From Porticoccaceae bacterium (GTDB taxonomy: Bacteria; Pseudomonadota; Gammaproteobacteria; Pseudomonadales; Porticoccaceae): a stretch of DNA of 64,000 nucleotides. The notes under the pieces were generated by a model, which saw nothing but the letters and a program-made list of their open reading frames with translations, ran no database searches and was not told the origin of the DNA. The DNA lies in assembly GCA_018663035.1 (NCBI GenBank), contig JABJEX010000013.1, positions 4,409 through 68,408 of the forward strand. The letters are read 5' to 3'. Shown here one piece after another: positions 39,162 through 54,013 of the stretch. Made by a program: the position numbers and the translations under genes. Position 1 is the first letter of the stretch, and every line of letters starts with the position of its first letter.

Positions 39162-40418
39162 ATGCCCAACGAACAAATAATGGCCCATTGTCACAGAGAC
39201 TATAAATACAGAGTGTCTGCAATTTTTTTACTTATCGCTTTGTTGCTGGCCAGTCAAACTGGATATTCCGAATCTATTGCGCAACAACAGCCACTAACAG
39301 ATCCAGTGGCAGACTACATCGACGCAATAGATCAGGTTGAAGCCGAGTACAGCGCCTATTCAACAGAACTCTCCGATCTCTATCTAGGGTTAGGAAAATT
39401 ACTTTATTCTCGCCAGAGCTACCAGGAGGCTCGCCAAGCATTTCAGCGCGGAATGCAGGTAGAGCGCGTCAACTATGGGCTCGAAAGCCTATCTCAGGGA
39501 CCATACTTACTGTCTATCGCAGACACTGAAAGCTATCTGGGCAACTGGGAAGAATCTCAAAAAGCGCTAGAGAATCTTTACAATATTCATGAAGCAACCC
39601 ATGGTAAAAATACCATAGAGATGTTGCCCGTATTGGATCAGATGATGACCTGGTATCTGGATAGCTACGATGAACGCACGCCCGCTGGAGGCTACTCCAG
39701 TCTGGTGGTGACCGAACGTATCGCAATGCGCATGCACTACATCATGGACAATAAAATGCCCCTCGACCACCCAGATGCGGTGCACCGTTATCGACGATTG
39801 GGGCATCTACAGTACTTTATAGCCAACCATATTAAACAGCATGGTGAACCCACCGTATCCGGGATTACCATTTCCACGGGCTCATCTGTACGCGGCAGTG
39901 ATGACAGCACCTCTCATATGCATTTTAGGCGCGGAAAAATAGCACTGGAGAGAGTTGTGGAGTCTCTGGTACAGCGCCAGGAAGATAATGAAATTGAACA
40001 GGCAATGGCGTTAGCGGAGCTGGGAGACTGGTACCTGGTCTTTGGACAGAGGTACTCTGCTCAGGAAGCCTATCAATTGGCCTATGATGTCTTGGGGAAT
40101 ACAGATCACCCAGAGCAGATCCGTGAGCAGCTCTTTGGCCAGCCACAGGTGATCGCTTTTAAGATGGAAAAGGACCCGGTGCCATTAGAGCCCAACGAAA
40201 ATCAACTACAGTTTAATATGGTTGTTTCTTCTGCTGGAGTCCCACAGGACATTAAAATGGTTAGTCAGGATGCTAACCTCTCCGACGAGCAACTGATGGC
40301 TCTGCGTAAAAAAGTGCGTAAACAGAGATACAGACCGAAATTGGACGCTGGACTGACTCAGGATGCTCCCCATAGCGTTATCCTCAATAATCCGGCACTA
40401 CTACCAGATGACCAATGA
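39162..40418 (+). CDS. Secreted TPR protein with a C-terminal TonB-C-like domain
   Basis: Hydrophobic N-terminal signal/anchor and TPR-like helices. The C-terminus LQFNMVVSSAGVPQDIKMV...VRKQRYRPKLDAG resembles the TonB C-terminal pattern. Confidence 0.65.
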   Translation: MPNEQIMAHCHRDYKYRVSAIFLLIALLLASQTGYSESIAQQQPLTDPVADYIDAIDQVEAEYSAYSTELSDLYLGLGKLLYSRQSYQEARQAFQRGMQVERVNYGLESLSQGPYLLSIADTESYLGNWEESQKALENLYNIHEATHGKNTIEMLPVLDQMMTWYLDSYDERTPAGGYSSLVVTERIAMRMHYIMDNKMPLDHPDAVHRYRRLGHLQYFIANHIKQHGEPTVSGITISTGSSVRGSDDSTSHMHFRRGKIALERVVESLVQRQEDNEIEQAMALAELGDWYLVFGQRYSAQEAYQLAYDVLGNTDHPEQIREQLFGQPQVIAFKMEKDPVPLEPNENQLQFNMVVSSAGVPQDIKMVSQDANLSDEQLMALRKKVRKQRYRPKLDAGLTQDAPHSVILNNPALLPDDQ

Positions 40419-40426
40419 GATGCCAT

Positions 40427-41185
40427 ATGACAGTGAAGATTACAGCCAAAAACACATCTAAGCCTGCACCCTCAATACTGGCTTTAGCCTCTGTGGTTCT
40501 AACCAGTCTGATATTAGGCGCCTGCCAGATGCCGTCCTACAGTTCACCCACGGGACCATCTTTACCCTCGGGACCATCTGGCGGAAGTTCTGGTGGTGGA
40601 AGCTCTGGTGGCGGAAGCTCTGGTGGCGGAGGCTCAGGTGGCGGTAGTTCAGGTGGTGGAATGCCCAGCGGCGGTGGAATGCCCGGCGGAACAGATTCCG
40701 GTAGTGGCGGCCAATCCGTCGAAGACTTAGATCAGGCCCTGGATGATAGTCTAGATGGTTTTGATGATGCCATGGGTGGCCAGAGTTCGAGTCAGGGCCC
40801 AGACGAAATTGATATTCTCAGCCCTAGCGGAGGTGGCGGCGGCGTGCAAAGTGATAGCGACGCACCATTGTTTGAGGGTGCTGAAGGCGGCCCCTTGGGC
40901 GAAAGCAATTCAGATTACGATCAGCGCGCAGCCGAGGGTCCTAGCTCTGGGGACTCAGCCGAGAGCAGCGCTGGAGGCCAGGGTGCCCCGCAGGGACAAG
41001 AGAGCAGTACCGGCTCCGCCTCTGAAAATGAGCCGGGTGAGGCGATACCAATGCCCGAGGATATAGGCGACGGACAGGGTGATGATATAGTGCTCAGGCA
41101 GATTAGAGATGCGGCGATGAAAGAGACTGACCCCGTCCTGCGTGAAAAGCTTTGGGACGAATATCGTCGTATAAAGAATCAATAA
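40427..41185 (+). CDS. Gly/Ser/acidic low-complexity lipoprotein with a short helical C-terminal domain
   Basis: Lipobox LGAC, a long disordered linker, and C-terminal DDIVLRQIRDAAMKETDPVLREKLWDEY. Confidence 0.7.
   Translation: MTVKITAKNTSKPAPSILALASVVLTSLILGACQMPSYSSPTGPSLPSGPSGGSSGGGSSGGGSSGGGGSGGGSSGGGMPSGGGMPGGTDSGSGGQSVEDLDQALDDSLDGFDDAMGGQSSSQGPDEIDILSPSGGGGGVQSDSDAPLFEGAEGGPLGESNSDYDQRAAEGPSSGDSAESSAGGQGAPQGQESSTGSASENEPGEAIPMPEDIGDGQGDDIVLRQIRDAAMKETDPVLREKLWDEYRRIKNQ
40586..40660 (+). repeat. Coding 15-bp tandem repeat x5 encoding (S/G)SGGG
   Basis: agttctggtggtgga / agctctggtggcgga x2 / ggctcaggtggcggt / agttcaggtggtgga. Confidence 0.9.
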
Positions 41186-41217
41186 CAGACTAGGCTACGC
41201 AATAAATAGGACGCTTT

Positions 41218-42471
41218 ATGAAAACCAAATTCTCAGGGACTAGCCCAATCTATCTGCGCCGCTATTTGAAGCGGCAGTCAGAGTACCGCTGGTATTTCCT
41301 AGCTAGAATTATGTGTTGCTGTGCAGCTATTGCTCTCTCGGCATCATCAGCTTGGAGCGCCACAGATAAGATCACCTCCTCAACGGCACTAGTGCTCAAC
41401 ACGCCGAGTCAGCAAATCCCAGATGAGGCCCTGTTAGATGTAGGCATCGCCACGCTAAATGACGGCCTAGAACTCACTGACGAAGATGACACAGTTTTCC
41501 CTGAGGTTCGCTTCGCCGAAGCCATATATTTTTCCAACCAGCTGGCTAAGGTAATGGAAAAAAGTGGTGCCTGGGGTGCTATTCGCGTCACCCCCAGCGA
41601 CAACGTAATTATGGATCTCTACATCACCGGCACCATCCTGCAATCCGATGGCGAGACCATGGATTTAGATATCAATGTGCGGGACAGCAGTGGTCGACAG
41701 TGGTTTAGTAAGCGCTATAAACAGATCACAGGAAAGTACGCCTACGATCGACGCCTAAAAACTTTGGGCGACCCCTTTCAGAATTTATTTGTGAGAATTG
41801 CCAATGATCTGCTTGCCTACCGAGAGGGGCTTACTAGTCAGCAGGCCGCCGAGCTGCGCACTATATCTGAACTGCGTTTTGCAAAACTGTTTTCACCTCA
41901 GGCCTTCGATAACTATGTCAGTGAGAGACGTGATGGCACATTAAAAATTGATCGTCTGCCAGCGGAAAACGACAGCATCCTCCAGCGAGTGCGCAAAATT
42001 CGTGATCGCGATTACCTGTATATAGATACTATGCAAGATTACTACGATGGTTTTTCTCAACAGATGCATCTGGCCTACCAAGAGTTCCGCCGCGCCTCCT
42101 ATGACTCAGTGGTAAAAGCTCGACAGCTAGACAAACAGGGTAACCGCCGTATTATCGCTGGTATCGGCGCCATACTAGCGGGTATCTATGGCCGCTATGA
42201 AGCCAATACCAGCATCGCTAGCGATGCTGGTTCAGCGACCGCGGCTGTGGGAGGCTTTGTTCTCAAGTCAGGGCTAGAAAAAAAGCAGGAGGCCGCATCC
42301 TACAATGAGGCCGTGGCGGAGATGGGCTCATCACTGGAGGCTGAAATTGCACCTCAGGTGATTGAGCTAGAAGATCGTACAGTGACCCTCACCGGCACAG
42401 TGCAGGCCCAGTATCAGCAGTGGCAAGAGTTGCTACAAAAAATTTACAAGCAAGAACGAGGCGCTCTGTAG
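41218..42471 (+). CDS. Uncharacterised exported protein with C-terminal glycine-zipper-like helices
   Basis: 417-aa ORF in the operon; signal-like segment (AIALSASSAWSA) and IIAGIGAILAGI...AAVGGFVL hydrophobic Gly-rich helices. Confidence 0.7.
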   Translation: MKTKFSGTSPIYLRRYLKRQSEYRWYFLARIMCCCAAIALSASSAWSATDKITSSTALVLNTPSQQIPDEALLDVGIATLNDGLELTDEDDTVFPEVRFAEAIYFSNQLAKVMEKSGAWGAIRVTPSDNVIMDLYITGTILQSDGETMDLDINVRDSSGRQWFSKRYKQITGKYAYDRRLKTLGDPFQNLFVRIANDLLAYREGLTSQQAAELRTISELRFAKLFSPQAFDNYVSERRDGTLKIDRLPAENDSILQRVRKIRDRDYLYIDTMQDYYDGFSQQMHLAYQEFRRASYDSVVKARQLDKQGNRRIIAGIGAILAGIYGRYEANTSIASDAGSATAAVGGFVLKSGLEKKQEAASYNEAVAEMGSSLEAEIAPQVIELEDRTVTLTGTVQAQYQQWQELLQKIYKQERGAL

Positions 42472-42474
42472 CCT

Positions 42475-43893
42475 ATGCCTGAGGCCAAACAGCATACCCA
42501 GCAAAAATTTATTGTCGGTGGTTTATTACTGCTCGGGGGCTTTGTGTTTTTGCTGCTTCCCAATATGGTAACCGAGCCTTGGATTGCAGCTGATGATAGT
42601 TCAACGGCACCAGTGGCGCCCGCTCCTTTAGTTAGTCCATCCACAGCCGCAGAAAAAACCAAGTATCGACAGGACTCACAGAAAGTATTGGCTCAAATTA
42701 TCGTGGCACGCGATAGCCTTCAAGAACGTTCCGTGGAGTACTGGGGTGACTTTGATTTCCGTCAGGCGATAGCGCTGGTGGATCAGGGTGACGAACAGTA
42801 TGGCTATGGCAATTACCGCGAATCATTGGCGAGCTATCAACAGTCACTGCTTGAGCTTCAAAGGTTGCAAGATAAAGCGCAAATCACTCTGGAAAACGCT
42901 CTAGCCGACGCCTCCAACGCTATCGAAAACGCCCAGCCGGGAGATGTTGCCATTGCTCAACAGGCAGCAAACACTGCCATAACCATAGCTCCTGACGACA
43001 GTAGATCGCAGCAGATTCTTGCGCGCACCAGCCAATTGGAAGCACTCGTCGAGGCATTGCAACTGGGTGAACAGCATCTGCAAAGAAAAGAACTAGCAAC
43101 TGCTAAAGCGTACTTCCAAAAAGCGTTGGCTCTTGATGGCCAGCATAAAAAAGCTACTGCTGCGCTGAGCTCTGTAGACCAAGCCATAGTAGAGCAGACA
43201 TTTCGCGGCTATATGAGTCGCGGTTTTAAAAAACTTGAAGACAATAATTTCGATGCTGCCACTGCAGCCTTTAACGAAGCAGGTAGAATCTACACTAATC
43301 ATCCAGCTGTAGATCAGGCTCTTTCACAGTTAGAGACAAGGCGCTCACAACTTACTGTCAGTCGGCAGATGCGGGAGGCAGCCGCCTTTGAGCGCCAGGA
43401 AGACTGGCAAAAGGCGCTAGCGCTGTATCAGGCACTGTTAAAAACCGACCCCTCACTTACCGAGGCTAGCGTTAGAACCGTAGGCGTCACTGTGCGAGCC
43501 AATTTAGACGAACAACTAAAAATGGCGCTTAAAGACCCCCTAGCGCTGTCTTCACCTAATGCCTACAACAGAGCCCAGAGGCTGGTCACAGATGCAGACA
43601 GCATTAAAAACCCAGGGCCTAAACTGCAACAACAGGTCTCAGAATTAAAGCGGCTATTGCAACAGTCCACAGTAGCCGTGAACGTAGAGCTGAGATCCAA
43701 CAACCTAACTGAGGTCACATTGTTTAGAGTCGCCGAGCTGGGCACCTTCGAAAATACCTCATTACAGCTGCGCCCTGGGCGCTATATTGCCGCAGGCACC
43801 CGCCTAGGTTTTCGAGACGTGAGAGTTGAATTTACCATTAGCGGCGAGCCCCTAGATCAACCCATTTGGGTAAGCTGCGAAGAAGCAATCTAA
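42475..43893 (+). CDS. Membrane-anchored periplasmic TPR protein with a C-terminal PEGA-like beta domain
   Basis: One N-terminal TM helix, a long helical/TPR region, and LQLRPGRYIAAGTRLGFRDVRVEFTI. Confidence 0.75.
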   Translation: MPEAKQHTQQKFIVGGLLLLGGFVFLLLPNMVTEPWIAADDSSTAPVAPAPLVSPSTAAEKTKYRQDSQKVLAQIIVARDSLQERSVEYWGDFDFRQAIALVDQGDEQYGYGNYRESLASYQQSLLELQRLQDKAQITLENALADASNAIENAQPGDVAIAQQAANTAITIAPDDSRSQQILARTSQLEALVEALQLGEQHLQRKELATAKAYFQKALALDGQHKKATAALSSVDQAIVEQTFRGYMSRGFKKLEDNNFDAATAAFNEAGRIYTNHPAVDQALSQLETRRSQLTVSRQMREAAAFERQEDWQKALALYQALLKTDPSLTEASVRTVGVTVRANLDEQLKMALKDPLALSSPNAYNRAQRLVTDADSIKNPGPKLQQQVSELKRLLQQSTVAVNVELRSNNLTEVTLFRVAELGTFENTSLQLRPGRYIAAGTRLGFRDVRVEFTISGEPLDQPIWVSCEEAI

Positions 43894-44022: not shown

Positions 44023-46098
44023 GTGACTATGCTCGGAAAAAATAATAATCAGCATCTATCCGCTACAGACTTCACACCACTCGACCAGGTAGCTAGCCAA
44101 CGTCGTCTGCCATTTTCTCCCGGCGTATTGGCACTGGTTTTACTTGCCGCCAGTGCCGCTGTGATAATGCTATATCTGGTTATAGCTCGCGCGGTGATTT
44201 TTCAAACAGAGCCAGAGAGTGCCGAGATAACGATTAGCGGCCTTTCATTTAACATAGGTGACAATTATCTACTGTTGACCGGCGTCTATCAGGTTGAGGC
44301 CAGCGCTGATGGTTACCATCCCCTGACCCAGAATATCGAGGTCACCGAGCAAGCAACTCAGAACGTCAAACTGGAGCTACAACCATTGCCAGGCAACCTC
44401 AGTGTCAGCTCAGAACTGACCGAGATAGAGGTCAGTATTGATGATGAACTCCGATCAACAGTGCCAGGCACGATAGAGGGCATTAACCGTGGGCTGCATC
44501 AAATCGAGTTTAAAAAATACCGCTATTTTCCATTGCAGCAAGAAATTGACATAGTCGGCCTGGGCACCACCCAGTCTCTAAATGTCTCCTTATTGCCCGC
44601 CTGGGGTGAGATGCATTTTGACTCCCAACCTCAGGGTGCCGATCTATATATTGATGATCGACCTGTCGGCCAAACCCCCTTGAAAACCGAGGTGTTGGAA
44701 ACTGGCAGTAAACTCAGATTGGAATACCCAGGCTATAAAACCTATACCAAGCAGGTGACTGTTAAAGCGGGCACTTCGGAGCAACACGAACTGATTAAGA
44801 TGATAGTTTCGGACGGTACGCTGCGAATCAGCAGCATGCCAGAGGGCGCCAATATCACCATCGACAGTCAATTTTTTGGCACCACCCCCGTTGATCTACC
44901 CCTAGCACCTTTTAAACAATACGACGTTGGGTTGTTTCTGGAGGGCTATATAAAAACCACTAAAAAGGTCAGTCTGGAGCCGGAGAAAACCACTGCTATG
45001 CAGGTTAGGCTGCAGCCAAATATCGGTAGCATTGCCTTGACCATAAGCCCAGCTGATGCGCAGATATTGATCGACAATAGGGATCAGGGCACTGGTAGCC
45101 GTACCCTGTCATTAACTGCCAAGCCGCACACGCTCACAGTTACTAAGCCAGGCTACGAGCCTAAATCTCTAACGGTTACTCCTAGGCCAGGGCATCAGCA
45201 GGCGCTCAATATCAAACTACTGACTCTTGAAGATGCCTACTGGGCATCTCGCCCCCCTGTAATAAAGAGCCCAGTTGGCTCAGAGTTAAAGCTTTTCCGT
45301 CCACAGCAGAGCTTCATCCTGGGTGCACCTCGCCGGCAACCGGGTCGACGAGCCAATGAGGCCGAGCGCAACGTTGGTCTGGAGAGACCCTTTTACCTGG
45401 GACGCAAAGAAATCAGCAATACCCAGTTCCGACGATGGCAAGAGCACAGCTCCTCAGCCATTAAAGGCCAGTCATTAGATATGAATAACCAGCCAGTGGC
45501 CAACGTCTCCTGGGAACAGGCCGCCCTGTTCTGTAACTGGCTTAGTCGTCAGGAGGGGCTCCCACCCTTTTATCTGATTGAAGACGGACTGATCAGTGGC
45601 TTTGACTGGGAGTCTCATGGTTATCGCCTACCCACAGAGGCAGAATGGGCCTGGGCGGCCAAGGTAAACAACGATGGCAATTCAGAGATCTTCCCATGGG
45701 AGTCTGGGCTATACCCGCCGATCAATGTACTAGACAACTATGCAGATCAGAGTGCTGCCAAGTTTCTTAGCTTTACCATTGCGAACTACAACGATAACTA
45801 TCCAGTCTCTGCGGACATAGGTAGTTTTAAGCCCAATAATAAGGGGCTCTACAATATGAGTGGCAATGTCTCAGAATGGGTCAACGACTTCTATGATATA
45901 CGCCCACATCGCGGCGCGCCTATCATGGACCCTAGGGGCCCGATTAGTGGTAATCGTCATGTTATTCGTGGCGCTAGCTGGGCACTTGGATCACGCACTG
46001 AACTGCGCCTGAGTTACCGTCAGGCTGGCACAGACGGTCAACTGGATGTAGGCTTTAGAATCGCCCGCTATGTTGATAGCCCCGGAGTCACACCATGA
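44023..46098 (+). CDS. PEGA-repeat protein with a C-terminal FGE-sulfatase (SUMF1/C-lectin-fold) domain
   Basis: One TM helix and several PEGA repeats (SQPQGADLYIDDRPVGQTP; SSMPEGANITIDSQFFGTTP). FGE motifs EISNTQF, PVANVSWEQA, RLPTEAEW, GLYNMSGNVSEW, RGASW and GFRIAR. Confidence 0.9.
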   Translation: MTMLGKNNNQHLSATDFTPLDQVASQRRLPFSPGVLALVLLAASAAVIMLYLVIARAVIFQTEPESAEITISGLSFNIGDNYLLLTGVYQVEASADGYHPLTQNIEVTEQATQNVKLELQPLPGNLSVSSELTEIEVSIDDELRSTVPGTIEGINRGLHQIEFKKYRYFPLQQEIDIVGLGTTQSLNVSLLPAWGEMHFDSQPQGADLYIDDRPVGQTPLKTEVLETGSKLRLEYPGYKTYTKQVTVKAGTSEQHELIKMIVSDGTLRISSMPEGANITIDSQFFGTTPVDLPLAPFKQYDVGLFLEGYIKTTKKVSLEPEKTTAMQVRLQPNIGSIALTISPADAQILIDNRDQGTGSRTLSLTAKPHTLTVTKPGYEPKSLTVTPRPGHQQALNIKLLTLEDAYWASRPPVIKSPVGSELKLFRPQQSFILGAPRRQPGRRANEAERNVGLERPFYLGRKEISNTQFRRWQEHSSSAIKGQSLDMNNQPVANVSWEQAALFCNWLSRQEGLPPFYLIEDGLISGFDWESHGYRLPTEAEWAWAAKVNNDGNSEIFPWESGLYPPINVLDNYADQSAAKFLSFTIANYNDNYPVSADIGSFKPNNKGLYNMSGNVSEWVNDFYDIRPHRGAPIMDPRGPISGNRHVIRGASWALGSRTELRLSYRQAGTDGQLDVGFRIARYVDSPGVTP

Positions 46099-46334: not shown

Positions 46335-46360
46335 GTATATCCACAGATAGGAACAGCGAC

Positions 46361-47182
46361 ATGAACAGTTCAACCAACCGCTCAACCAACGAGTTGTTTT
46401 TCCAGATAGTAGCACTGCTACTCGCGGTGATAATTGTCCACACCATCTTTGTCACTGTGGTGCGTCCCAACGCAGAGAGTACCATTCGCCAGCATGCCGA
46501 AATGGCTGCCGCTGGAGAGGACTACGTGGTGCCAAGATCATTTTTTATTGTCATTAAAGATCTTGAACAGGAAGCCTGTTTTATCCTGATGTTCTGGGCA
46601 CTGGCGATTATGGGCTACAAGACTCGCACCAGTATTCGTGAAAACAAAATGCTGCAAAAGCCACTAATCTCCATCGCTGAGGGTTCGCGAGTGCTACCAG
46701 AGGACGCAGCGCAGCTAGCTCGCCCATTGCAAGCATTACCCGAGGTAGAGCGCAGCTATCTGCTACCCCGCGCGCTGCAAACCGCTCTGACCAGATTTCA
46801 GGTTACAGCCAGCGTACAATTTGCTACCGAGGCAGTGACCAATGTCTGCGAAACTGAAAATGATCGGCTCGACTCTGAATTGTCCATGGTTCGCTACATA
46901 ACCTGGGCCATTCCCTCGATTGGATTTATTGGTACAGTGCGAGGTATTGGCGCGGCTCTGGGTCAGGCTCATGAAGCTATGCAAGGGAATATTGCTGGGG
47001 TTACTAGCAGCCTTGGAGTCGCCTTTAACTCAACATTTATCGCACTGCTAATCAGCATGGTGGTGATGTTCTTTATGTTTCAACTGCAACTTATTCAGGA
47101 ACGTCTGGTACTTGATTCTCAGGCTCACTGTGAAAATAACCTGCTGCGCTTTTTAAAGGCGCCCAAAGCGACGCAGTCCTAA
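46361..47182 (+). CDS. MotA/TolQ/ExbB proton-channel family protein
   Basis: AIPSIGFIGTVRGIG matches the TolQ/ExbB PxxGLxGTVxG motif, followed by LGVAFNSTFIALL. It carries extra N-terminal TM helices. Confidence 0.92.
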   Translation: MNSSTNRSTNELFFQIVALLLAVIIVHTIFVTVVRPNAESTIRQHAEMAAAGEDYVVPRSFFIVIKDLEQEACFILMFWALAIMGYKTRTSIRENKMLQKPLISIAEGSRVLPEDAAQLARPLQALPEVERSYLLPRALQTALTRFQVTASVQFATEAVTNVCETENDRLDSELSMVRYITWAIPSIGFIGTVRGIGAALGQAHEAMQGNIAGVTSSLGVAFNSTFIALLISMVVMFFMFQLQLIQERLVLDSQAHCENNLLRFLKAPKATQS

Positions 47183-48441: not shown

Positions 48442-49489
48442 AAAGCGTCGCAATATAGCCTTCAGTCTTTCCTTTCTGGATATTATGGCCTGTGGCTTTG
48501 GTGCTGTGACATTGCTGTTTTTAATTCTTCGCCACAATGCTGCCGAGGTGGTTACCCCAGATCTGCGTATCGCTGCAGAGGTAGACATGCTGCAGATGGA
48601 TATTCGCCAAGCCGAGGAAGAGAGAGTTGAGCTGCTCAATAGCCTTCAAGAAATTCAACTCCAGTTGGTTGAGGCTCAGGGCCTCTCACAAAGAGTGATT
48701 ACCGATCTTCAGGAACAGGAAAACAGTATTCAAAACGACCCCAATGATCTGGACAGGCTTCGCCGTCAAGTGGAACGCCTCGAAGAAGAGACTGCGCAGA
48801 TGGAAGAGGTGGAGTTTGGTGACCGCGTGCGCGAATTTCAGGGCGATGGCAATCGCCAATACCTGACGGGACTAAAATTAGGTGGGGAACGGGTTCTTAT
48901 TTTGGTGGATGGCTCCGCTAGTATGCTAGCAGATACAGTGGTCAATGCTGTGCGACGACGCAATATGGAGGACAGCCAAAAACAGCAGTCTGCAAAATGG
49001 CAGTGGACATTGCGGACGCTGGAATGGCTGCTCGCTCAACTACCGCCCAGCAGCCGCTTTCAAGTCTATGTATTTAATACGCAGGCACGGCCCGCTCTTG
49101 AAGGAACAGAGGGTGAGTGGCTGGACGCAGCAGATTCTCTTGCCCTAGAGCAGGTAGTTGCAGGTATCAAAGAATACTCTCCCGGTGAAGGCACCAGCCT
49201 GTTCAATGCCTTTACGGCTATTCGAGACTTTGAAGATAAACCGGATAACCTATTCCTGTTAACCGATGGACTGCCCACTCAGGGAAAAAGCCCGCCGAAA
49301 AAATATATGGTCAGTGGTAAACAACGCCGCAATCATTTTTCGACTGCCATCGATCTGCTGCCGAGGGGTCTACCTGTAAACACCATTTTGTTTCCCATGG
49401 AAGGTGATCCAGAGGCAGCAGCACTATTTTGGCAGACAGCATTAGATACCAATGGCGCGTTTATAGCGCCTTCAAGAGACTGGCCCTAG
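48434..49489 (+). CDS. ExbD/TolR-like anchored coiled-coil VWA protein 1
   Basis: Basic N-terminus, TM helix LSFLDIMACGFGAV (Asp16), a long coiled coil, and a VWA domain with MIDAS DGSAS and LLTDG. Confidence 0.85.
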   Translation: MPKKRRNIAFSLSFLDIMACGFGAVTLLFLILRHNAAEVVTPDLRIAAEVDMLQMDIRQAEEERVELLNSLQEIQLQLVEAQGLSQRVITDLQEQENSIQNDPNDLDRLRRQVERLEEETAQMEEVEFGDRVREFQGDGNRQYLTGLKLGGERVLILVDGSASMLADTVVNAVRRRNMEDSQKQQSAKWQWTLRTLEWLLAQLPPSSRFQVYVFNTQARPALEGTEGEWLDAADSLALEQVVAGIKEYSPGEGTSLFNAFTAIRDFEDKPDNLFLLTDGLPTQGKSPPKKYMVSGKQRRNHFSTAIDLLPRGLPVNTILFPMEGDPEAAALFWQTALDTNGAFIAPSRDWP

Positions 49490-49498
49490 GTTAATGCT

Positions 49499-50488
49499 AT
49501 GAAAAAACAACGTAGAGAACTTCAGGAAGCGAGCCTCTCATTTCTAGATGTCATTAGCTGTGGTTTTGGCGCCATAGTGCTGTTACTGGTAATCGCGAAA
49601 GTGGGTGACCCCTCAGCGCTAGAGGAGGCAGAAAAACAACTGCTTGGCTCAGTAAAGGACTATCAGGAAAAGCTCTTTGATATTCGTGGTGAGGCAGTGA
49701 TTCTCGATCGGCGTCTAAAATCCCGTCAGGAGCAGCTCTCAGATCTCAATGAGCGAATAGCCCGTCTCAAAGAAAAACTGGCCAGCGTTGCCAAACAATC
49801 CAACCAGCTGTCGCAATCCCAGTCACGAGAAAAAGAACAGCTACAGCTGGTGCTTCAGGTGCTCTCAGAAGAAATGCAGCGTCTGCTAGGGCCGGAATTT
49901 CAGCGCAAAAATCAGTTGATCGGCGGTATACCAGCAGACAGTGATTATATTATTTTTGTCATAGATACCTCAGGTAGCATGCAGGTAGCAGCCTGGGAAA
50001 AAGTAAAAAAGGAGATGCTCAATATTCTCGATATATACCCCGAGGTCAAGGGGCTTCAGGTGCTTAATGATATGGGCCAGTACATGTTCAGTGCAGAAGA
50101 AGGCCGCTGGATAGCAGACAGCCCTGGCATGAGAAAAAACATCATAGATCAGCTGACAAACTGGGCGCCCTTTAGTAACTCAAGCCCAGTGGAAGGAATC
50201 AATGCAGCTATTCGAACCTTTTACAAGCCGGGCCGTAAAATCAGTATCTATACCCTAGGTGATGATTTTCAGGGGCGTTCAATTCGCAAGGTAGTCAAAG
50301 CTGTTGACCAGTTAAATAAAGCCCATCGTGGCAGCGACCGACTAGTGCGCGTCCACGCTATTGGGTTCCCTGTGCACTTCCCCCCAGGGGGCACCCCAAG
50401 CGCATCGGCCGTTAAGTTCGCCGCATTGATGCGCGAACTAAGTTACAACAATGGAGGAACCTTTATCGGGTTAAATAGCCTTAACTAA
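49499..50488 (+). CDS. ExbD/TolR-like anchored coiled-coil VWA protein 2
   Basis: Basic N-terminus, TM helix LSFLDVISCGFGAI (Asp17), a long coiled coil, and a VWA domain with MIDAS DTSGS and TLGDD. Confidence 0.85.
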   Translation: MKKQRRELQEASLSFLDVISCGFGAIVLLLVIAKVGDPSALEEAEKQLLGSVKDYQEKLFDIRGEAVILDRRLKSRQEQLSDLNERIARLKEKLASVAKQSNQLSQSQSREKEQLQLVLQVLSEEMQRLLGPEFQRKNQLIGGIPADSDYIIFVIDTSGSMQVAAWEKVKKEMLNILDIYPEVKGLQVLNDMGQYMFSAEEGRWIADSPGMRKNIIDQLTNWAPFSNSSPVEGINAAIRTFYKPGRKISIYTLGDDFQGRSIRKVVKAVDQLNKAHRGSDRLVRVHAIGFPVHFPPGGTPSASAVKFAALMRELSYNNGGTFIGLNSLN

Positions 50489-50501
50489 AGGGATATAAAC
50501 T

Positions 50502-51146
50502 ATGTTGAATATAAATAGACCTGACGGAAGCGGACAAAAAACCTCAATTAAAGTCCTTTTGGGCTTGGGTTTACTACTATTGCTGAGTGGCTGCAGCAGC
50601 TCCTCCTCGGTGACAGTAGATCAGGAATTTCCAACCGTGCTAGCTGTTCCCAAGCCGGTATCTGCCAGCATCGTCTTCGACGAAAGCTTCAGCACCTATC
50701 TTGCTCAGCCCAATGAAAAAACACAGATTGCTCTGGGGACTGCTCAGGTAAAACTGTTGCGCAACGCCTTTACCGGCCTCTTTGAAGAAGTCGAGTTTGT
50801 CAGCAGCAAAGAACAGATCACTAGTACCAATGGCCTTGTGATTATCCCCTCGGTGAGAGAGGTACAGGTCTCGACCCCATCAGACAATTATCTCAATGTA
50901 TTTGAAGTCTGGATCAAATATAACTTAGACATTGAAACCGCTGATGGCGAGACAATAGATAGCTGGTTTATGCCGGCCTATGGCAAAACCCCCGATGCGT
51001 TTATGGCCTCGAAATCAAGTGCCATTGAAGACGCCGCAGTCATTGCTCTTCGGGATGCTGGCGCCAAGTTGATGCTGGACTTTTATCGTATTCCTGCAAT
51101 TTACGGCTGGATGATGGAACAGCAAATATTGGAGGACTCAAAATGA
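50502..51146 (+). CDS. Uncharacterised lipoprotein
   Basis: Lipobox LSGC; 214 aa; translationally coupled to the next gene. Confidence 0.75.
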   Translation: MLNINRPDGSGQKTSIKVLLGLGLLLLLSGCSSSSSVTVDQEFPTVLAVPKPVSASIVFDESFSTYLAQPNEKTQIALGTAQVKLLRNAFTGLFEEVEFVSSKEQITSTNGLVIIPSVREVQVSTPSDNYLNVFEVWIKYNLDIETADGETIDSWFMPAYGKTPDAFMASKSSAIEDAAVIALRDAGAKLMLDFYRIPAIYGWMMEQQILEDSK

Positions 51147-51805
51147 ATACTCTGACCAAATTCACTGGTATTGGCCTATTTTTAATTGTTTTAAGTGGCT
51201 GTACAGCCACCACCACTATTGATGAGTATCGTCCATCGACTGAAGCCATAGACCTCAATAGTGACGAAAAAGTCGTTATTCTCGGCCGTCGTGATGCAGG
51301 CCACTACGAAACTGACCGAGAATTTATTCAATGTGTTGCCGGAAAAATGAAAGGTGCTGATATTTCAGTACTGCCCGAACAGACTTTTATTGATTCTATT
51401 TACCCCTGGTTTGAACCACGTACTGCGCCCAAGGGCCTGCCCAGACTCAAGCGTCTGATGCAAGACCCCAGTGTTAAAGCCCAGGTTGACCGGCAGTCAG
51501 TGCGCTATTTGGTATGGTTAGATGGTTCCACGGAAACTCTGGATCAGGGTGGCTCTATCAGCTGTGCTGTCGGCCCCGGTGGTGGTGGCTGCTTCGGCTT
51601 CGCCCAGTGGGACAAACTCTCAGTGTACGAAGCCATAGTCTGGGATATGACCAATCTTCAGGAAATGGGTCGACTTCGAGTGGACTCCGAAGGCACCTCT
51701 TATCTGATTGGTGCCGTAGCACCGATCCCCCTGCTAACACCCGTCAAGAGTGATGCCTGCTCCAGCTTGGGCAATCAGCTTAAATCATTTTTCTCGGCGC
51801 CTTAA
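51143..51805 (+). CDS. Uncharacterised Cys-containing lipoprotein
   Basis: Lipobox LSGC; contains ISCAVGPGGGGCFGF and two further Cys residues. Confidence 0.75.
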   Translation: MNTLTKFTGIGLFLIVLSGCTATTTIDEYRPSTEAIDLNSDEKVVILGRRDAGHYETDREFIQCVAGKMKGADISVLPEQTFIDSIYPWFEPRTAPKGLPRLKRLMQDPSVKAQVDRQSVRYLVWLDGSTETLDQGGSISCAVGPGGGGCFGFAQWDKLSVYEAIVWDMTNLQEMGRLRVDSEGTSYLIGAVAPIPLLTPVKSDACSSLGNQLKSFFSAP

Positions 51806-51810
51806 CTCTT

Positions 51811-53241
51811 ATGCCTTTACTGACTCAAACCTTTAAGCATCGCTGGTCGATAATCTTTATGGTCAGCTTACTAAGCCTGACTCCAGCGACTGCTCTGTCC
51901 GCAGTTAGCGGCGCTGACATCTACAAAGAGGTGCTAGAAAGCACCAATATTTATAAAGACGAAAAGCTACAGGCCTACATAGAAAGGCTCGGCAATGAAA
52001 TTGTCGCTCAATCAGAAATGGCTGGGGAGACCTTTATATTTACCCTGCTCGACTCGCCAGATCTCAATGCCTTTGCCACCAGAGATAACTATATCTACGT
52101 CAATCGCGGGCTGCTCAATTATGTCAGCAATGAGGCTCAGCTGGTTTCTGTACTTGCCCATGAGGTGGGCCATATCACTCGCAATCATGTGCGCGGACAG
52201 GAAGGCCAGGCTACGGGAGCGCAGATTCTCTCTACCATCGCTGCAGTGCTCTCTAATAGCTCAGAGGTATACGAGGCCGGCATGGCCTACGCCAACTCAT
52301 TGATACGAGGCCATGGCCGCCGCAACGAATTGGAGGCAGATGAAGCTGGTGCAGAATATATGGCCAAACTCGGATATGACCCCAACGAAATGCTGGGCAT
52401 GCTGTCAATAATGAAAGACTATGAGTCCCTGACAAAACAGCGCGCTAAATCCAAAGGTGCCAGCAAACAGACTTACCATGGGATTTTTTCTACGCATCCG
52501 CGCAATGACAGCCGTCTGCGTACCGTGGTCAGTAAAGCAAATGCCTTTAAATCTGAAATCACCAGGGATAATGGTGCCGCCAACTACAGAGCACTGACCG
52601 ACGGTCTAGTCTGGGGTGAAAACTTTCTTGCTAAGGAACAAAAACTGCAGCGCTTTTCAGATATGCGTCTGCGGGTACGCCTGGATTTTCCACCCGACTG
52701 GATCCAAGATAAGCCTGCTAGTGGGCTATTAGCCAGTGCCACAGCACCAGATAAAAAGGCTGACATGAGCATGCAGGTCATTGCCCGCACGGCTCAGAGC
52801 CCGGAAGAGTATCTCTACAACTATCTTAAAGTCTCGCAACTAAAAAATGGCACAGCCATAGCACCGGCGAGACTAAAGGGCTTTACCGGCATACTGCCCG
52901 GCCAAGAGGGTGATCCGGATACTCGAATCGCAGTAATTTATTACAAGTTGAATGCCTATTTGCTGAGTGGCACGGTTGAGGAGCCGACTAGCTTTAATGA
53001 TATTGATAAGAGCTTTATCGCCTCAATTAATACCTTTCGGCCGATTTCCAGTCGAGAAATTGCTGGCCAAAAACCTCAGACCGTTCGCTATGTAAAAGCC
53101 ACGGCCGCCACTACCTTTGAGGCACTGGCAAAGACCCTTAAACTGAGCAGCGCGGATGTTGAAGATCTGCGTATAATCAACGGCTACTACCCCAGTGGCG
53201 AGCCCGCCGCAGGCGAGTGGATTAAAATCTTTAAACGCTAG
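51811..53241 (+). CDS. M48-family zinc metalloprotease (BepA/YfgC-like) with a LysM-like C-terminus
   Basis: LNAFA, VLAHEVGH (HExxH), ELEAD and FSTHP motifs. The C-terminus TTFEALAK...LRIINGYYPSGEPAAGEWIKI is LysM-like. Confidence 0.9.
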   Translation: MPLLTQTFKHRWSIIFMVSLLSLTPATALSAVSGADIYKEVLESTNIYKDEKLQAYIERLGNEIVAQSEMAGETFIFTLLDSPDLNAFATRDNYIYVNRGLLNYVSNEAQLVSVLAHEVGHITRNHVRGQEGQATGAQILSTIAAVLSNSSEVYEAGMAYANSLIRGHGRRNELEADEAGAEYMAKLGYDPNEMLGMLSIMKDYESLTKQRAKSKGASKQTYHGIFSTHPRNDSRLRTVVSKANAFKSEITRDNGAANYRALTDGLVWGENFLAKEQKLQRFSDMRLRVRLDFPPDWIQDKPASGLLASATAPDKKADMSMQVIARTAQSPEEYLYNYLKVSQLKNGTAIAPARLKGFTGILPGQEGDPDTRIAVIYYKLNAYLLSGTVEEPTSFNDIDKSFIASINTFRPISSREIAGQKPQTVRYVKATAATTFEALAKTLKLSSADVEDLRIINGYYPSGEPAAGEWIKIFKR

Positions 53242-53254
53242 GTTTTAACATCAG

Positions 53255-54013
53255 ATGAAAATGTTAAATAGACTTTCTAGTCGGCGGTGGCTGCTGCTGA
53301 TAATTCTTTTGCTACCTATGCTGTTGGCAGTTTACTGGGTCATCAATCAGGAGAATTCAGCTAGCCAAAAAGACTGGGACGCAGATCGATACAACCTGCC
53401 GGATATCTCTGCACTGGAACAACGTATTGAGATTGAACTATTTGGTACTGAGCCAGAGGCGACCCGAGATATAGGTGCAGATATAGATATGCCGCTGGAT
53501 ATCCAGGCAATGGAAGCGAAGCTGGCAGGGCTAACCAAAAATGTTACCACTCTCCGCCAACCCAAAGAGCAGGAACTGCAGAGCTACTTTCAACGCCATG
53601 AGGCAAATTACCGGCGAGACTCGTATTTCAGTTTTCGACACATGCTATTTAGTACCGCGGCTTATGGCGGTCAGGCCTATGACAGGGCCGAGAGAGAATT
53701 GCTTGAGCTCAAGGCAGGCGCAGCAACAACATCCCAGCCTAGCTCTTTAAAAGACCAGTATTATGGAGTTTCCTCAAGCGAGATCGACCGAGATTTTGGC
53801 AACAATTTTTCGACTAAAATGATCGCTCTGAGTTTGGAGGGAGACCAGAGCAATGGCAGCCTACCCTGCTGGGCCGGCCCCATTACCTCAGCCTATGGTG
53901 CCCATCTAATCTGTATAGAGAAGTTGGTTTTGGGAGCAGTTCCAAGGTTGGAGGATGTGCGTGCTCAGGTAATCAACGATTGGCGCTACTGGATAAGCAC
54001 AGCAACCGATTAA
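53255..54013 (+). CDS. Membrane-anchored parvulin/PpiC-like protein (rotamase-like, probably divergent)
   Basis: TM anchor; ELQSYFQRH..Y...FSFRHMLF and WAGPITSAYGAHL...PRLEDVRAQVINDW motifs. Confidence 0.65.
   Translation: MKMLNRLSSRRWLLLIILLLPMLLAVYWVINQENSASQKDWDADRYNLPDISALEQRIEIELFGTEPEATRDIGADIDMPLDIQAMEAKLAGLTKNVTTLRQPKEQELQSYFQRHEANYRRDSYFSFRHMLFSTAAYGGQAYDRAERELLELKAGAATTSQPSSLKDQYYGVSSSEIDRDFGNNFSTKMIALSLEGDQSNGSLPCWAGPITSAYGAHLICIEKLVLGAVPRLEDVRAQVINDWRYWISTATD

What the first reader, a model, noticed from the sequence alone, without database searches (positions are those of the whole stretch)
39162..54013. Candidate undescribed proton-motive-force-driven trans-envelope machine (14-gene operon)
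Seen: 14 co-directional genes, several with overlapping or near-touching start/stop codons, nearly all encoding envelope proteins. They include a MotA/TolQ/ExbB channel, two Asp-bearing single-pass coiled-coil VWA proteins, a TPR+TonB-C-like protein, a TM-TPR-PEGA protein and a TM-PEGA-FGE protein. Also present are three lipoproteins, two exported unknowns, a cytoplasmic Hsp70/FHA-like protein, an M48 protease and a PPIase-like protein. Established: MotA/ExbB plus Asp-bearing partners power the Ton, Tol-Pal, flagellar-stator, Myxococcus Agl-Glt and Zorya systems, and FGE-fold proteins (GldK/PorK, GldJ) are structural parts of the Bacteroidota T9SS/gliding machine. Inference: this is a complete energised machine with a motor, transducer, periplasmic scaffold, outer-membrane lipoproteins and its own protease/foldase. 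It could serve surface motility, adhesion, secretion or macromolecule import. There is no TBDR, tolB/pal, MotB-OmpA domain or Zorya nuclease in the operon, so it fits none of the known systems.
Basis: partly seen in the sequence, partly recalled or inferred. Interest (0 to 1): 0.93.

Follow-up and report, generated by a model that had tools for sequence, protein, structure and literature searches.

The report
Proton motor operon with vWA axle
This is a real, strictly conserved 13-gene operon of marine Gammaproteobacteria that most likely builds a proton-driven machine spanning the cell envelope; a 2025 paper predicted its unusual motor core by computer, but nobody knows what the whole machine does.

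Summary
There are 14 intact co-directional genes at 39162-54013, many with overlapping start and stop codons, and the stated domain content was confirmed.

- **Motor:** g07 is a TolQ/ExbB-like channel. g09 and g10 are paralogous proteins with an ExbD/TolR-type Asp-bearing membrane helix, a coiled-coil stalk and a vWA head. No ExbD/TolR gene lies in the cluster.
- **Other parts:** a TM-5xPEGA-FGE protein without catalytic cysteines, a TM-TPR-PEGA protein, a TPR-TonB_C protein, a cytoplasmic Hsp70-fold protein (pLDDT 94), three lipoproteins and an M48 protease.
- **Conservation:** g02-g13 keep the same order and strand in about 90 loci from Porticoccaceae, Halieaceae, Cellvibrionaceae, Microbulbifer, Lysobacterales, Colwellia and Thalassomonas. 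Where enough upstream DNA is held, g01 sits ahead of them. Flanking genes differ where they were compared.
- **g14:** the PPIase-like gene travels with the set only in the SAR92 genus.
- **Novelty claim:** "undescribed" is only partly right. The motor core (TolQ-like pentamer plus a heterologous pair of Asp-bearing vWA proteins) was predicted in silico in Mol Biol Evol 2025 (PMC12204202), with function unknown. I found no paper covering the other ten conserved genes.

Best reading: a proton-driven 5:2 motor whose vWA-tipped axle works on an outer-membrane lipoprotein platform. Its cellular role is unknown, and I favour envelope maintenance only weakly.

The parts
39162..40418 (+). g01: exported TPR protein with a TonB_C-like C-terminal domain (418 aa)
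   Evidence: TPR_12 E 7.9e-9. Signal-peptide-like N-terminus. Orthologues hit Pfam TonB_C at their C-termini: L008 5.8e-9 (above cut-off), L098 1.2e-3, L091 0.019. It is the least conserved member, at 20-37% identity outside the genus.
40415..41185 (+). g02: lipoprotein with a variable Gly/Ser-rich linker and an invariant C-terminal helical peptide
   Evidence: Lipobox LGAC at residue 34. 15/30-bp tandem repeats at 40579-40689. In orthologues the linker varies in length and composition; complete ORFs run 221-447 aa. The tail DDDVVARQIREAAMxExDPxLREKLWDEYRKYK is kept in all of them.
41218..42471 (+). g03: exported 417-aa protein with an alpha/beta domain and a long helical hairpin; no family assignment
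   Evidence: No Pfam or NCBIfam hit. Identity is 33-81% across 31 orthologues. AF2 model pLDDT 79. The alpha/beta domain weakly resembles LptE (E 7e-4) and the TolB N-terminal domain (E 2e-3 to 5e-2). That resemblance is a lead only.
42475..43893 (+). g04: inner-membrane-anchored TPR protein ending in a PEGA-like domain (472 aa)
   Evidence: Membrane helix at residues 12-30. TPR_2 1.5e-9. The C-terminal 100 aa match the g05 PEGA-repeat profile with hhalign probability 93.7%, E 1.9e-7.
44023..46098 (+). g05: inner-membrane-anchored stalk of five PEGA repeats carrying a non-catalytic FGE-fold head (691 aa)
   Evidence: PEGA 5e-51 in five stretches; FGE-sulfatase 3.7e-34. The best NCBIfam match is GldK/PorK at 96.8 bits, far below the 350-bit cut-off. 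The protein has only one Cys (residue 504), so the FGE catalytic Cys pair is absent. Orthologue length is conserved: median 693 aa, n=74.
46095..46334 (+). g06: small secreted acidic protein with a variable linker and an invariant C-terminal peptide
   Evidence: Signal peptide. An 18-bp repeat occurs 4.3 times at 46179-46255. Orthologues differ in length and linker, but nearly all listed ones end in ...PSEEISEDxxVxFPxDI-COOH; the most distant are degenerate but keep FPxDI.
46361..47182 (+). g07: TolQ/ExbB/MotA-like proton-channel subunit (273 aa)
   Evidence: MotA_ExbB 3.8e-13. TolQ 5.2e-6, below the equivalog cut-off. The P.IG..GTV.GI and NST motifs align with the genome's own TolQ. It is the best conserved member, at 46-63% identity across the families sampled.
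47182..48441 (+). g08: cytoplasmic Hsp70-fold protein (probably a pseudo-ATPase) with a C-terminal beta domain, translationally coupled to g07 and g09
   Evidence: No Pfam hit and no membrane helix. AF2 pLDDT 94, pTM 0.87. The 50 listed best Foldseek PDB hits are all Hsp70/DnaK/Ssz1, E 3e-16 to 1e-13. The glycine-rich phosphate loops are replaced (LDLND and ELQLQQ, by inspection). 2 of 49 family members hit FHA. The family has 1241 clusters at 50% identity.
48434..49489 (+). g09 (VWA1): Asp-bearing trans-pore helix, coiled-coil stalk and vWA head with MIDAS (351 aa)
   Evidence: VWA_3 5.7e-6. The helix SLSFLD16IMACGFGAV aligns with the [P][FLMY][LI]D[V] motif of the genome's own ExbD/TolR proteins. 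DGSAS MIDAS motif. Asp-to-MIDAS spacing is conserved, median 151 residues.
49499..50488 (+). g10 (VWA2): paralogue of g09 (25% identity) with the same architecture (329 aa)
   Evidence: Weak VWA hits. Invariant FLD17..CGFGA and DTSGS motifs. Asp-to-MIDAS spacing median 142. More than 7998 homologues at E <= 1e-3; the search was saturated.
50502..51146 (+). g11: lipoprotein of unknown fold (214 aa)
   Evidence: Lipobox LSGC at residue 28; Ser at +2 suggests outer-membrane sorting under the E. coli rule (inference). No Pfam, NCBIfam or PDB sequence match. Conserved next to g10 in most loci.
51143..51805 (+). g12: lipoprotein with four invariant cysteines (220 aa)
   Evidence: Lipobox LSGC at residue 17. 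C64, C141, C150 and C206 are invariant in 30 orthologues, which implies disulfides. No family or PDB match.
51811..53241 (+). g13: exported M48 zinc metalloprotease, BepA-like catalytic domain plus an unassigned 230-aa C-terminal region (476 aa)
   Evidence: Peptidase_M48 5.5e-33. BepA 4.8e-29, but 101 bits against a 570-bit cut-off. The C-terminal 227 aa have no Pfam hit. Present in most loci but missing from some distant ones.
53255..54013 (+). g14: membrane-anchored parvulin-like protein; a genus-specific neighbour, probably not part of the conserved system
   Evidence: Rotamase_2 E 1e-4, 23.5 bits, below the 27-bit cut-off. tblastn finds it after g13 only in loci closely related to the window, at 21-71% identity (labelled Porticoccaceae/SAR92), and in none of the more distant loci.

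Best explanation
Genes g01-g13 form one operon for an envelope-spanning machine driven by the proton-motive force.

**Motor (strongly inferred).** Five copies of the TolQ-like g07 surround a heterodimer of g09 and g10. The N-terminal helices of g09 and g10 each carry the proton-binding Asp, in the position it occupies in ExbD/TolR/MotB. Proton flow turns or pulls this pair.

**Axle (inferred).** A coiled-coil stalk of conserved length carries two metal-binding vWA heads across the periplasm.

**Scaffold (inferred).** Two inner-membrane-anchored proteins stand beside the motor and reach a similar height: g05 (five PEGA repeats plus a non-enzymatic FGE-fold head) and g04 (TPR plus PEGA). At the outer side there are three lipoproteins (g02, g11, g12), the periplasmic TPR-TonB_C protein g01, and g03.

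**Docking peptides (speculative).** g02 and g06 are flexible tethers that end in invariant peptides. These probably dock into the TPR domains or the vWA MIDAS sites.

**Cytoplasmic side (inferred).** The Hsp70-fold g08 is translationally coupled between the channel gene and the axle gene. It probably binds the motor's cytoplasmic face as a regulator or clamp. This would be comparable to PilM binding PilN.

**Processing (inferred).** The M48 protease g13 probably processes or quality-controls a component.

**Cellular role.** This is not known. My weakly favoured guess is Tol-Pal-like mechanical work on the outer membrane or its lipoproteins (envelope maintenance), because no outer-membrane channel, substrate or surface adhesin is encoded in the operon.
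For: **The unit**
- The same order and strand for g02-g13 in about 80 loci from at least seven labelled gammaproteobacterial families or orders.
- The same in loci found independently through g08 across the class.
- The same 13 genes in L101 at 27% g08 identity, with different flanking genes.
- Overlapping start and stop codons.

**The motor**
- g07 hits MotA_ExbB and keeps the TolQ Thr-bearing motifs.
- g09 and g10 carry the invariant FLD..CGFGA motif, which aligns with the Asp motif of the genome's own four ExbD/TolR proteins.
- No ExbD domain lies in the cluster or on this contig.
- The published AF3 model of this class places the two Asp residues inside the Thr ring of the pentamer (PMC12204202).

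**The axle**
- DxSxS is invariant in both paralogues.
- Asp-to-MIDAS spacing is conserved at 151 and 142 residues.

**The scaffold**
- for g04 and g05.
- for TonB_C in g01 orthologues.
- for the lipoboxes.

**The tethered peptides:**

**g08 fold:**

**Other context**
- Base composition is even, with GC 0.47-0.52 across the window, and the flanking genes are metabolic. This is not an island.
- Separate TolQ/ExbB-ExbD sets exist elsewhere in the genome, so this cluster is an additional system.
Against: - No experiment exists for any member. No multimer model could be run here.
- The vWA loci were retrieved with the Asp-helix pattern itself. Conservation of that motif in those loci is therefore partly built in. 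The loci found through g08 are not subject to this.
- No outer-membrane barrel, peptidoglycan-binding domain or substrate is encoded, so "trans-envelope" is inferred only from lipoproteins and stalk lengths.
- g03's similarity to LptE and the TolB N-domain is weak.
- g08's ATP-site degeneration and FHA-like end rest on inspection and on 2 of 49 Pfam hits.
- The system is dispensable. It is absent from 8 of 24 genomes of the same genus, including two near-complete genomes of 2.4-2.5 Mb.
Confidence: 0.6

Rival explanations
1. A secretion or surface-motility apparatus built on the plan of the Bacteroidota T9SS/gliding core. An FGE-fold protein (like PorK/GldK) forms a sub-outer-membrane ring that is driven by a 5:2 motor whose long periplasmic subunit reaches the ring. 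The outer-membrane channel and the cargo or adhesin would be encoded elsewhere.
For: - The FGE domain of g05 scores best against GldK/PorK among NCBIfam models (1.7e-27), and it lacks the catalytic Cys pair.
- The gene order is FGE gene, then motor channel, then long periplasmic motor subunit. This mirrors gldK-gldL-gldM (established knowledge).
- vWA adhesins act in Myxococcus gliding (cited in PMC12204202).
Against: - The GldK score is 96.8 bits against a 350-bit cut-off. g05 is anchored by a membrane helix, not lipidated.
- No GldL, GldM, GldN or SprA-like hit.
- No outer-membrane translocon, cargo with a C-terminal sorting domain, or surface adhesin in any of the roughly 90 loci.
- The host here is a 2.0-Mb planktonic SAR92-type bacterium.
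Confidence: 0.15
2. An envelope-stress sensor or defence-type signalling device, comparable in logic to Zorya. The motor would report a perturbation of the envelope to the cytoplasm through the Hsp70-fold/FHA-like protein, rather than do mechanical work outward.
For: - A cytoplasmic Hsp70-fold protein with an FHA-like end sits inside the motor genes.
- Earlier scan notes report related clusters in other bacteria that carry Ser/Thr kinases and FHA domains (not tested here).
- There is a weak ZorA hit, E 0.004.
Against: - PADLOC finds nothing else in ten proteins.
- There is no nuclease, kinase or other effector in this version.
- The setting is not a defence island: even GC and metabolic flanks.
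- Ten periplasmic or outer-membrane components are more than a sensor would need.
Confidence: 0.1
3. A Ton-like import system. The TonB_C domain of g01 would engage a TonB-dependent receptor encoded elsewhere, and the vWA motor would energise uptake of a macromolecule.
For: - A TonB_C domain occurs in g01 orthologues.
- The carriers are marine polymer-degrading lineages.
Against: - No receptor gene lies in or beside the cluster in any locus.
- g01 has a signal peptide, not a TonB-type SHLS membrane helix, so it cannot couple to the motor the way TonB does (and inspection).
- g01 is the least conserved member.
- Canonical ExbB-ExbD sets are present elsewhere in the genome.
Confidence: 0.05
4. 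Not one machine: two or three unrelated operons (for example g01-g04, g05-g10, g11-g13) that merely lie side by side.
For: - There is a 129-nt gap between g04 and g05.
- g11-g13 are missing from some distant loci (L093, L096, L100).
- No transcript data are available.
Against: - g02-g10 keep the same order in every locus with enough sequence, and g11-g12 do so in most, across families whose flanking genes differ where compared.
- There is no convincing + strand terminator inside the cluster.
- Neighbours whose adjacency is only by chance do not stay collinear at 25-40% protein identity.
Confidence: 0.07

Closest known systems
[quoted passage not shown] 4c,d)
   Same: - A tolQ-like gene sits tightly next to a heterologous pair of membrane-anchored vWA genes.
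- There is no tolR/exbD.
- The anchor helix carries a conserved Asp, and the channel carries Thr-bearing motifs.
- The class is found mainly in Proteobacteria.
- Function is unknown.
   Different: - The paper's main text describes only the motor core; I did not read its full supplement.
- Here the core is embedded in a strictly conserved 13-gene set that the paper's main text does not mention. The extra genes are PEGA-FGE, TPR-PEGA, TPR-TonB_C, an Hsp70-fold protein between the channel and axle genes, three lipoproteins, two tethered-peptide proteins and an M48 protease.
- Direct homology to the paper's Idiomarina reference could not be tested, because no accession is given in the held supplements.
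Tol-Pal system (TolQRA-TolB-Pal)
   Same: - It has a TolQ-family channel.
- A TonB_C/TolA-C-type domain occurs in a partner protein (g01 orthologues).
- g03 may have a TolB-N/LptE-like domain.
- Outer-membrane lipoproteins are present.
- The presumed task is mechanical coupling of the inner and outer membranes.
   Different: - There is no TolR (ExbD domain), no TolA-type SHLS anchor, no TolB beta-propeller and no OmpA-like Pal.
- The axle is a vWA pair.
- Canonical TolQ/ExbB and ExbD/TolR gene sets are present elsewhere in the genome.
T9SS/gliding core PorK-L-M-N (GldK-L-M-N) of Bacteroidota
   Same: - It has a non-catalytic FGE-fold protein.
- That gene is followed by a 5:2-type motor channel and a long periplasm-spanning motor subunit.
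- The gene order is analogous.
   Different: - The motor subunits belong to different families (TolQ-like against GldL; vWA axle against GldM).
- g05 is anchored in the inner membrane by a helix and a PEGA stalk, not lipidated.
- No PorN, translocon or cargo is present.
- The GldK model scores far below its cut-off.
Myxococcus Agl-Glt gliding machinery
   Same: - It has a TolQ/R-type motor.
- It also has several TPR proteins, TonB_C-domain proteins, lipoproteins and a vWA protein (CglB).
   Different: - In Agl-Glt the vWA protein is a surface adhesin, not the motor's inner subunit.
- AglQ/S are ordinary TolR-like proteins.
- Agl-Glt has outer-membrane barrels (GltA/B/H), which are absent here.
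- No sequence-level match was found.
Zorya anti-phage system (ZorAB plus effectors)
   Same: It has a MotA/ExbB-family channel with an atypical partner, and a cytoplasmic component attached to the motor.
   Different: - The ZorA hit is only E 0.004.
- There is no ZorB peptidoglycan-binding domain, no long ZorA tail, and no ZorC/D/E nuclease or helicase.
- The cluster is not in a defence island.

Membership tests
TPH-vWA / TolQ-like predicted motor class (PMC12204202) | A tolQ-like gene tightly linked to membrane-anchored vWA genes | tested here: met
   g07 hits MotA_ExbB. g09 and g10 are VWA proteins 1.25 kb downstream in the same operon. The linkage is kept in about 90 loci.
TPH-vWA / TolQ-like predicted motor class (PMC12204202) | No tolR/exbD/motB gene in the cluster | tested here: met
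   No ExbD or OmpA hit among the 14 proteins. The genome's four ExbD genes lie on other contigs.
TPH-vWA / TolQ-like predicted motor class (PMC12204202) | vWA genes occur as a heterologous pair | tested here: met
   g09 and g10 are 25% identical, and each is closer to its own orthologues.
TPH-vWA / TolQ-like predicted motor class (PMC12204202) | TolR/ExbD-like helix with a conserved Asp and no SHLS/His motif | tested here: met
   FLD is invariant and aligns with the own-genome ExbD motifs. It is found in 81/90 and 88/95 orthologue ORFs (part of this set was retrieved with the pattern). The helices contain no His (inspection).
TPH-vWA / TolQ-like predicted motor class (PMC12204202) | Sequence homology to the paper's reference cluster (Idiomarina loihiensis) | not testable with these tools
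   No accession for the vWA proteins appears in the text or the held supplements.
Tol-Pal | TolR (ExbD domain), TolA (SHLS anchor), TolB beta-propeller and Pal (OmpA-like lipoprotein) | tested here: not met
   None of these domains is found in the 14 proteins. The TolQ equivalog scores 26 bits against a 221-bit cut-off. Only weak TolB-N-like fold hits exist for g03.
Ton system / TtpC-type Ton | ExbD, a TonB with membrane anchor and Pro-rich linker, and an associated TonB-dependent receptor | tested here: not met
   There is no ExbD. g01 has a TonB_C-like end but a signal peptide and TPRs in place of an anchor and linker. No receptor lies in or next to any locus.
T9SS PorKLMN / GldKLMN | GldK/PorK lipoprotein at equivalog level, plus GldL, GldM and GldN | tested here: not met
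   GldK scores 96.8 bits against a 350-bit cut-off. No GldL/M/N hits. g05 has a membrane helix, not a lipobox.
Zorya | ZorA with a long tail, ZorB, and ZorC/D or ZorE effectors | tested here: not met
   Only a ZorA hit at E 0.004, 14 bits. Nothing else matches in PADLOC.
Bat / aerotolerance-type vWA-TPR locus | MoxR AAA+ ATPase, a DUF58 protein, and BatA/BatB-type vWA proteins with two membrane helices | tested here: not met
   No AAA or DUF58 hit. The vWA proteins here are single-pass with an ExbD-like Asp helix.
Flagellar stator MotAB | MotB with an OmpA-like peptidoglycan-binding domain and plug helix | tested here: not met
   No OmpA-family domain occurs in any of the 14 proteins.
Hsp70 chaperones (for g08) | Nucleotide-binding domain with Gly-rich phosphate loops, plus a substrate-binding domain | tested here: inconclusive
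   The fold matches the Hsp70 nucleotide-binding domain. No Pfam HSP70 hit. A profile search of PDB gives only E about 0.1. The DLGTT and DLGGG loops read LDLND and ELQLQQ (inspection). The C-terminal domain is a small beta domain, not an Hsp70 substrate-binding domain.

The most novel reading that the evidence does not exclude
The 13 genes encode a distinct, self-contained class of trans-envelope machine. A rotary TolQ-like motor turns a heterodimeric, integrin-like vWA axle. The MIDAS heads of the axle catch the invariant acidic C-terminal peptide of a dedicated secreted or tethered ligand (g06 or g02). Catch and release happens at a platform of outer-membrane lipoproteins, framed by a PorK-like FGE ring on PEGA stalks. 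The motor is gated from the cytoplasm by an Hsp70-fold pseudo-ATPase. This would be a fifth or sixth functional family of 5:2 motors, alongside Mot, Ton, Tol, Agl-Glt, GldLM and Zor, with a new output mechanism and possibly a shared ancestry with the T9SS core.
Probability: 0.3. Interest if true: 0.85.

Novelty: new variant of a known kind. Interest (0 to 1): 0.68.

Why it matters
Proton-driven 5:2 motors are the only known way Gram-negative bacteria deliver energy to their outer membrane, which has none of its own. Each known family (flagellar stator, Ton, Tol, gliding/T9SS, Zorya) turned out to underlie a major piece of cell biology.

This operon replaces the universal ExbD/TolR/MotB partner with two adhesion-type vWA proteins. 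It also brings about ten dedicated partners that no paper I could find has examined.

It is kept in abundant marine carbon-cycling lineages, including a 2-Mb streamlined SAR92-type genome. It also occurs in cultured strains in which deletion, point-mutation and imaging experiments could be attempted.

Working out its role would add a new output mechanism to this motor family. It might also show how the T9SS motor-ring arrangement arose.

Tried and rejected
**Searches that found nothing useful**
- PADLOC scan of ten proteins: only a 14-bit ZorA hit, so a defence system is rejected.
- NCBIfam: no equivalog-level hit for any member. GldK, TolQ and BepA all score far below their cut-offs.
- Sequence searches of PDB with g01, g11 and g12: nothing.
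- Pfam on 32 g03 orthologues: nothing consistent.
- Pfam on the isolated C-terminal pieces of g01, g04, g08 and g13 from this genome: nothing. The LysM-like look of the g13 tail is therefore unsupported.
- Cluster-member names for ten distant g08 relatives: all "hypothetical protein".
- Six literature searches: only PMC12204202 bears on the system.
- Supplements of PMC12204202: no accession for the Idiomarina vWA genes.

**Steps that failed or were blocked**
- A locus search with the g08 alignment failed because it has no conserved stretch. The vWA alignment was used instead.
- The promoter/terminator scan was uninformative.

**Negative distribution result**
- A phylum-wide sample found the g08 family only in Gammaproteobacteria. 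At most four candidates per genome were scored, so this is a floor.

Full report
**What is there.** The region 39162-54013 holds 14 intact + strand ORFs. Several junctions overlap: g01/g02 by 4 nt, g05/g06 by 4, g07/g08 by 1, g08/g09 by 8 and g11/g12 by 4. The other gaps are 3-32 nt, apart from 129 nt between g04 and g05. Base composition is even across the window, GC 0.47-0.52. The neighbours are ordinary metabolic genes: a CoA-transferase, an aminotransferase and an M20 peptidase upstream. Two convergent ORFs that I read as trpA and trpB, by inspection only, lie downstream. The genome is a 2.0-Mb, 104-contig assembly. Source names on near-identical proteins place it in SAR92/Porticoccaceae.

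**Domain content.** Pfam and NCBIfam and a topology scan give the following.

| Gene | Reading |
|---|---|
| g01 | exported TPR protein |
| g02 | lipoprotein with a Gly/Ser-rich linker |
| g03 | exported, no family |
| g04 | membrane helix plus TPR |
| g05 | membrane helix, five PEGA repeats, FGE-sulfatase domain |
| g06 | 79-aa secreted acidic protein |
| g07 | MotA/TolQ/ExbB channel |
| g08 | cytoplasmic, no family |
| g09, g10 | single-pass, coiled-coil, vWA |
| g11, g12 | lipoproteins, no family |
| g13 | exported M48 protease |
| g14 | membrane-anchored, sub-threshold parvulin hit |

Three first-reader calls do not show up directly in this genome's sequences, so I tested them another way.
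- Orthologues of g01 hit Pfam TonB_C at their C-termini. L008 gives E 5.8e-9, above the cut-off; L098 gives 1.2e-3.
- The C-terminal 100 residues of g04 match a profile of the g05 PEGA repeats, with hhalign probability 93.7% and E 1.9e-7.
- g08 folds with pLDDT 94. All 50 listed best Foldseek hits in the PDB are Hsp70/DnaK/Ssz1 nucleotide-binding domains, E 3e-16 to 1e-13. A profile search of PDB sequences also returns only Hsp70s, though weakly.

By inspection, the two glycine-rich phosphate loops of Hsp70 are replaced in g08 by LDLND and ELQLQQ. It is probably not a normal ATPase. Its last 85 or so residues form a separate beta domain. Two of 49 family members hit FHA there, best E 1.4e-4, so "FHA-like" is plausible but degenerate. 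g05 has a single cysteine, at residue 504, so the catalytic Cys pair of formylglycine-generating enzymes is absent.

**The motor.**
- g09 and g10 are paralogues at 25% identity. They share an invariant FLD..CGFGA helix and an invariant DxSxS MIDAS motif.
- Set beside this genome's four canonical ExbD/TolR proteins (TPMLDVVF, VPYIDVTL, TPLIDVVF), the Asp falls at the same place at the start of the helix.
- g07 keeps the P.IG..GTV.GI motif and a second Thr-bearing motif of the genome's own TolQ.
- No ExbD-domain gene lies in the cluster or on this contig. The four ExbD genes and the four other MotA_ExbB genes lie on other contigs.
- The distance from the helix Asp to the MIDAS Asp is tightly conserved among orthologues, with medians of 151 and 142 residues. 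This fits a stalk of fixed length.

**Co-conservation.**
- tblastn of the 14 proteins against four relatives shows the same order, including one genome from another family of the order.
- A scan of one genome per species with the helix pattern gave more than 593 confirmed loci. They carry labels such as Porticoccaceae, Halieaceae, Cellvibrionaceae, Microbulbifer, Lysobacterales, Pseudohongiella, Thalassomonas and Colwellia, and they include cultured strains.
- In the best 80 loci, g02-g13 appear in the same order and strand wherever the sequence reaches that far.
- Loci found independently through g08 in an even sample of the class (16 of 321 genera) keep g02-g10 in that order, apart from a displaced g07 in one locus and an unmatched g07 in another. 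They usually keep g11 and g12, and sometimes g13.
- A Porticoccaceae MAG whose g08 is only 27% identical has the same 13 genes in order, between different neighbours.
- g14 is found only within the window's own genus. g01 is conserved but diverges fast.
- Within the genus, 16 of 24 other genomes carry g08. The 8 non-carriers include four near-complete genomes of about 1.4-1.5 Mb and two of 2.4-2.5 Mb.
- A phylum-wide sample found the g08 family only in Gammaproteobacteria. This is a floor.

**Two tethered peptides.**
- g06 orthologues differ greatly in length and linker composition. Here the linker is an 18-bp repeat, 4.3 copies. Nearly all listed orthologues end in ...PSEEISEDxxVxFPxDI, and the most distant ones keep at least FPxDI.
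- g02 orthologues have linkers of varying length and composition, with complete ORFs of 221-447 aa. All keep the tail DDDVVARQIREAAMxExDPxLREKLWDEYRKYK.
- These look like docking peptides on flexible tethers. Their partners (TPR domains, or the vWA MIDAS sites for the acidic g06 tail) are my inference.

**g03.** The model has pLDDT 79. It has an alpha/beta domain that weakly resembles LptE and the N-terminal domain of TolB (E 7e-4 to 5e-2), followed by a long helical hairpin. I treat this as a lead only.

**Comparison with what is known.**
- One paper bears directly on this system: Mol Biol Evol 2025, PMC12204202.
- Its section on new force transducers describes TMH-tethered vWA genes that co-occur tightly with tolQ homologues and no tolR/exbD.
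- These occur mostly as heterologous pairs, with a TolR/ExbD-like helix and a conserved Asp.
- AF3 models place them inside the TolQ-like pentamer.
- The paper reports them mainly in Proteobacteria and Verrucomicrobia, with function unknown.
- Every defining feature of that class that I could test is met here (see the membership table).
- Homology to the paper's Idiomarina reference could not be tested.
- The paper's main text does not mention the PEGA-FGE protein, the Hsp70-fold protein, the TPR proteins, the lipoproteins, the tethered-peptide proteins or the protease.
- Five further literature searches found nothing else.
- The cluster fails the defining features of Tol-Pal, Ton, MotAB, T9SS, Zorya and Bat loci.
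- Earlier notes of this scan on other genomes reached the same reading independently. I used them only as leads.

**How it most likely works.**

*Strongly inferred from sequence and the published models:* five g07 surround a g09/g10 heterodimer, and proton flow through the Asp/Thr site moves the pair.

*Inferred:*
- The coiled-coil stalks carry the vWA heads toward the outer membrane.
- g05 and g04 stand beside them on PEGA and TPR stalks.
- g02, g11 and g12 form the outer-membrane side. Their +2 residues are Gln, Ser and Thr, which point to outer-membrane sorting under the E. coli rule.
- g08 sits on the cytoplasmic face as a regulator or clamp. This follows from its translational coupling to g07 and g09, and is analogous to PilM binding PilN.
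- g13 processes a component.

*Function:* unknown. The operon encodes no outer-membrane barrel, cargo, adhesin or receptor. It does encode a BepA-like protease, a TonB_C/TolA-C-type domain and perhaps a TolB-N/LptE-like domain. I therefore weakly favour Tol-Pal-like mechanical work on the outer membrane or its lipoproteins. A T9SS-like secretion or motility role, a sensing or defence role, and a Ton-like import role remain open.

**Verdict.**
This is a genuine, deeply conserved machine built on a 5:2-type motor, but its core is already in print as a prediction, g14 is not part of it, and no function can be assigned.
- It is a new variant of a known kind of system. It can be tested experimentally, because cultured carriers exist.

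Noticed in passing
window 53255-54013 and 54010-54777: g14 ends 4 nt inside the stop of the convergent ORF at 54010-54777 (-), which I read as trpA by inspection. The two genes therefore share their 3' ends with no room for a terminator between them. g14 follows g13 only in the window's own genus.
   Followed up: partly
window 40579-40689 and 46179-46255: Coding tandem repeats occur in the linkers of g02 (15/30-bp units, Gly/Ser-rich) and g06 (18-bp unit, SPEP, 4.3 copies). Orthologues show that these linkers are free to change in length and composition while the terminal peptides stay fixed.
   Followed up: yes
own genome, contig C70:38590-39961: A 480-aa ExbB with a long N-terminal extension (TtpC-like in appearance) is followed by a second ExbB and an ExbD. 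Further ExbB/ExbD sets lie on C80, C32, C48 and C98. The genome therefore has several canonical Ton/Tol motors besides this cluster.
   Followed up: partly
genomes G004, G011-G014, G017, G019, G021 (same genus): The g08 marker is absent from 8 of 24 genomes of the genus. Four of these are near-complete at about 1.4-1.5 Mb, and two are near-complete at 2.4-2.5 Mb. The operon has therefore been lost repeatedly and is not essential.
   Followed up: partly
L093:9358-13705 (G169): In one distant family the TolQ-like gene sits after the two vWA genes instead of before the Hsp70-fold gene. This is the only rearrangement of the core seen. In L091 (G244) no g07 match was found between g05 and g08.
   Followed up: no
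L101:1-2364: In the Porticoccaceae MAG KatS3mg124 the cluster is preceded by two MacB_PCD/FtsX permease genes. These look like LolC/E-type lipoprotein-release genes. The link was seen only once, so it is probably coincidence.
   Followed up: no
window 51143-51805 (g12): Four cysteines (C64, C141, C150, C206) are invariant in 30 orthologues of this small lipoprotein, together with a GPGGxGCFGF motif. The fold is probably disulfide-locked, and it has no match in Pfam or PDB sequences.
   Followed up: partly
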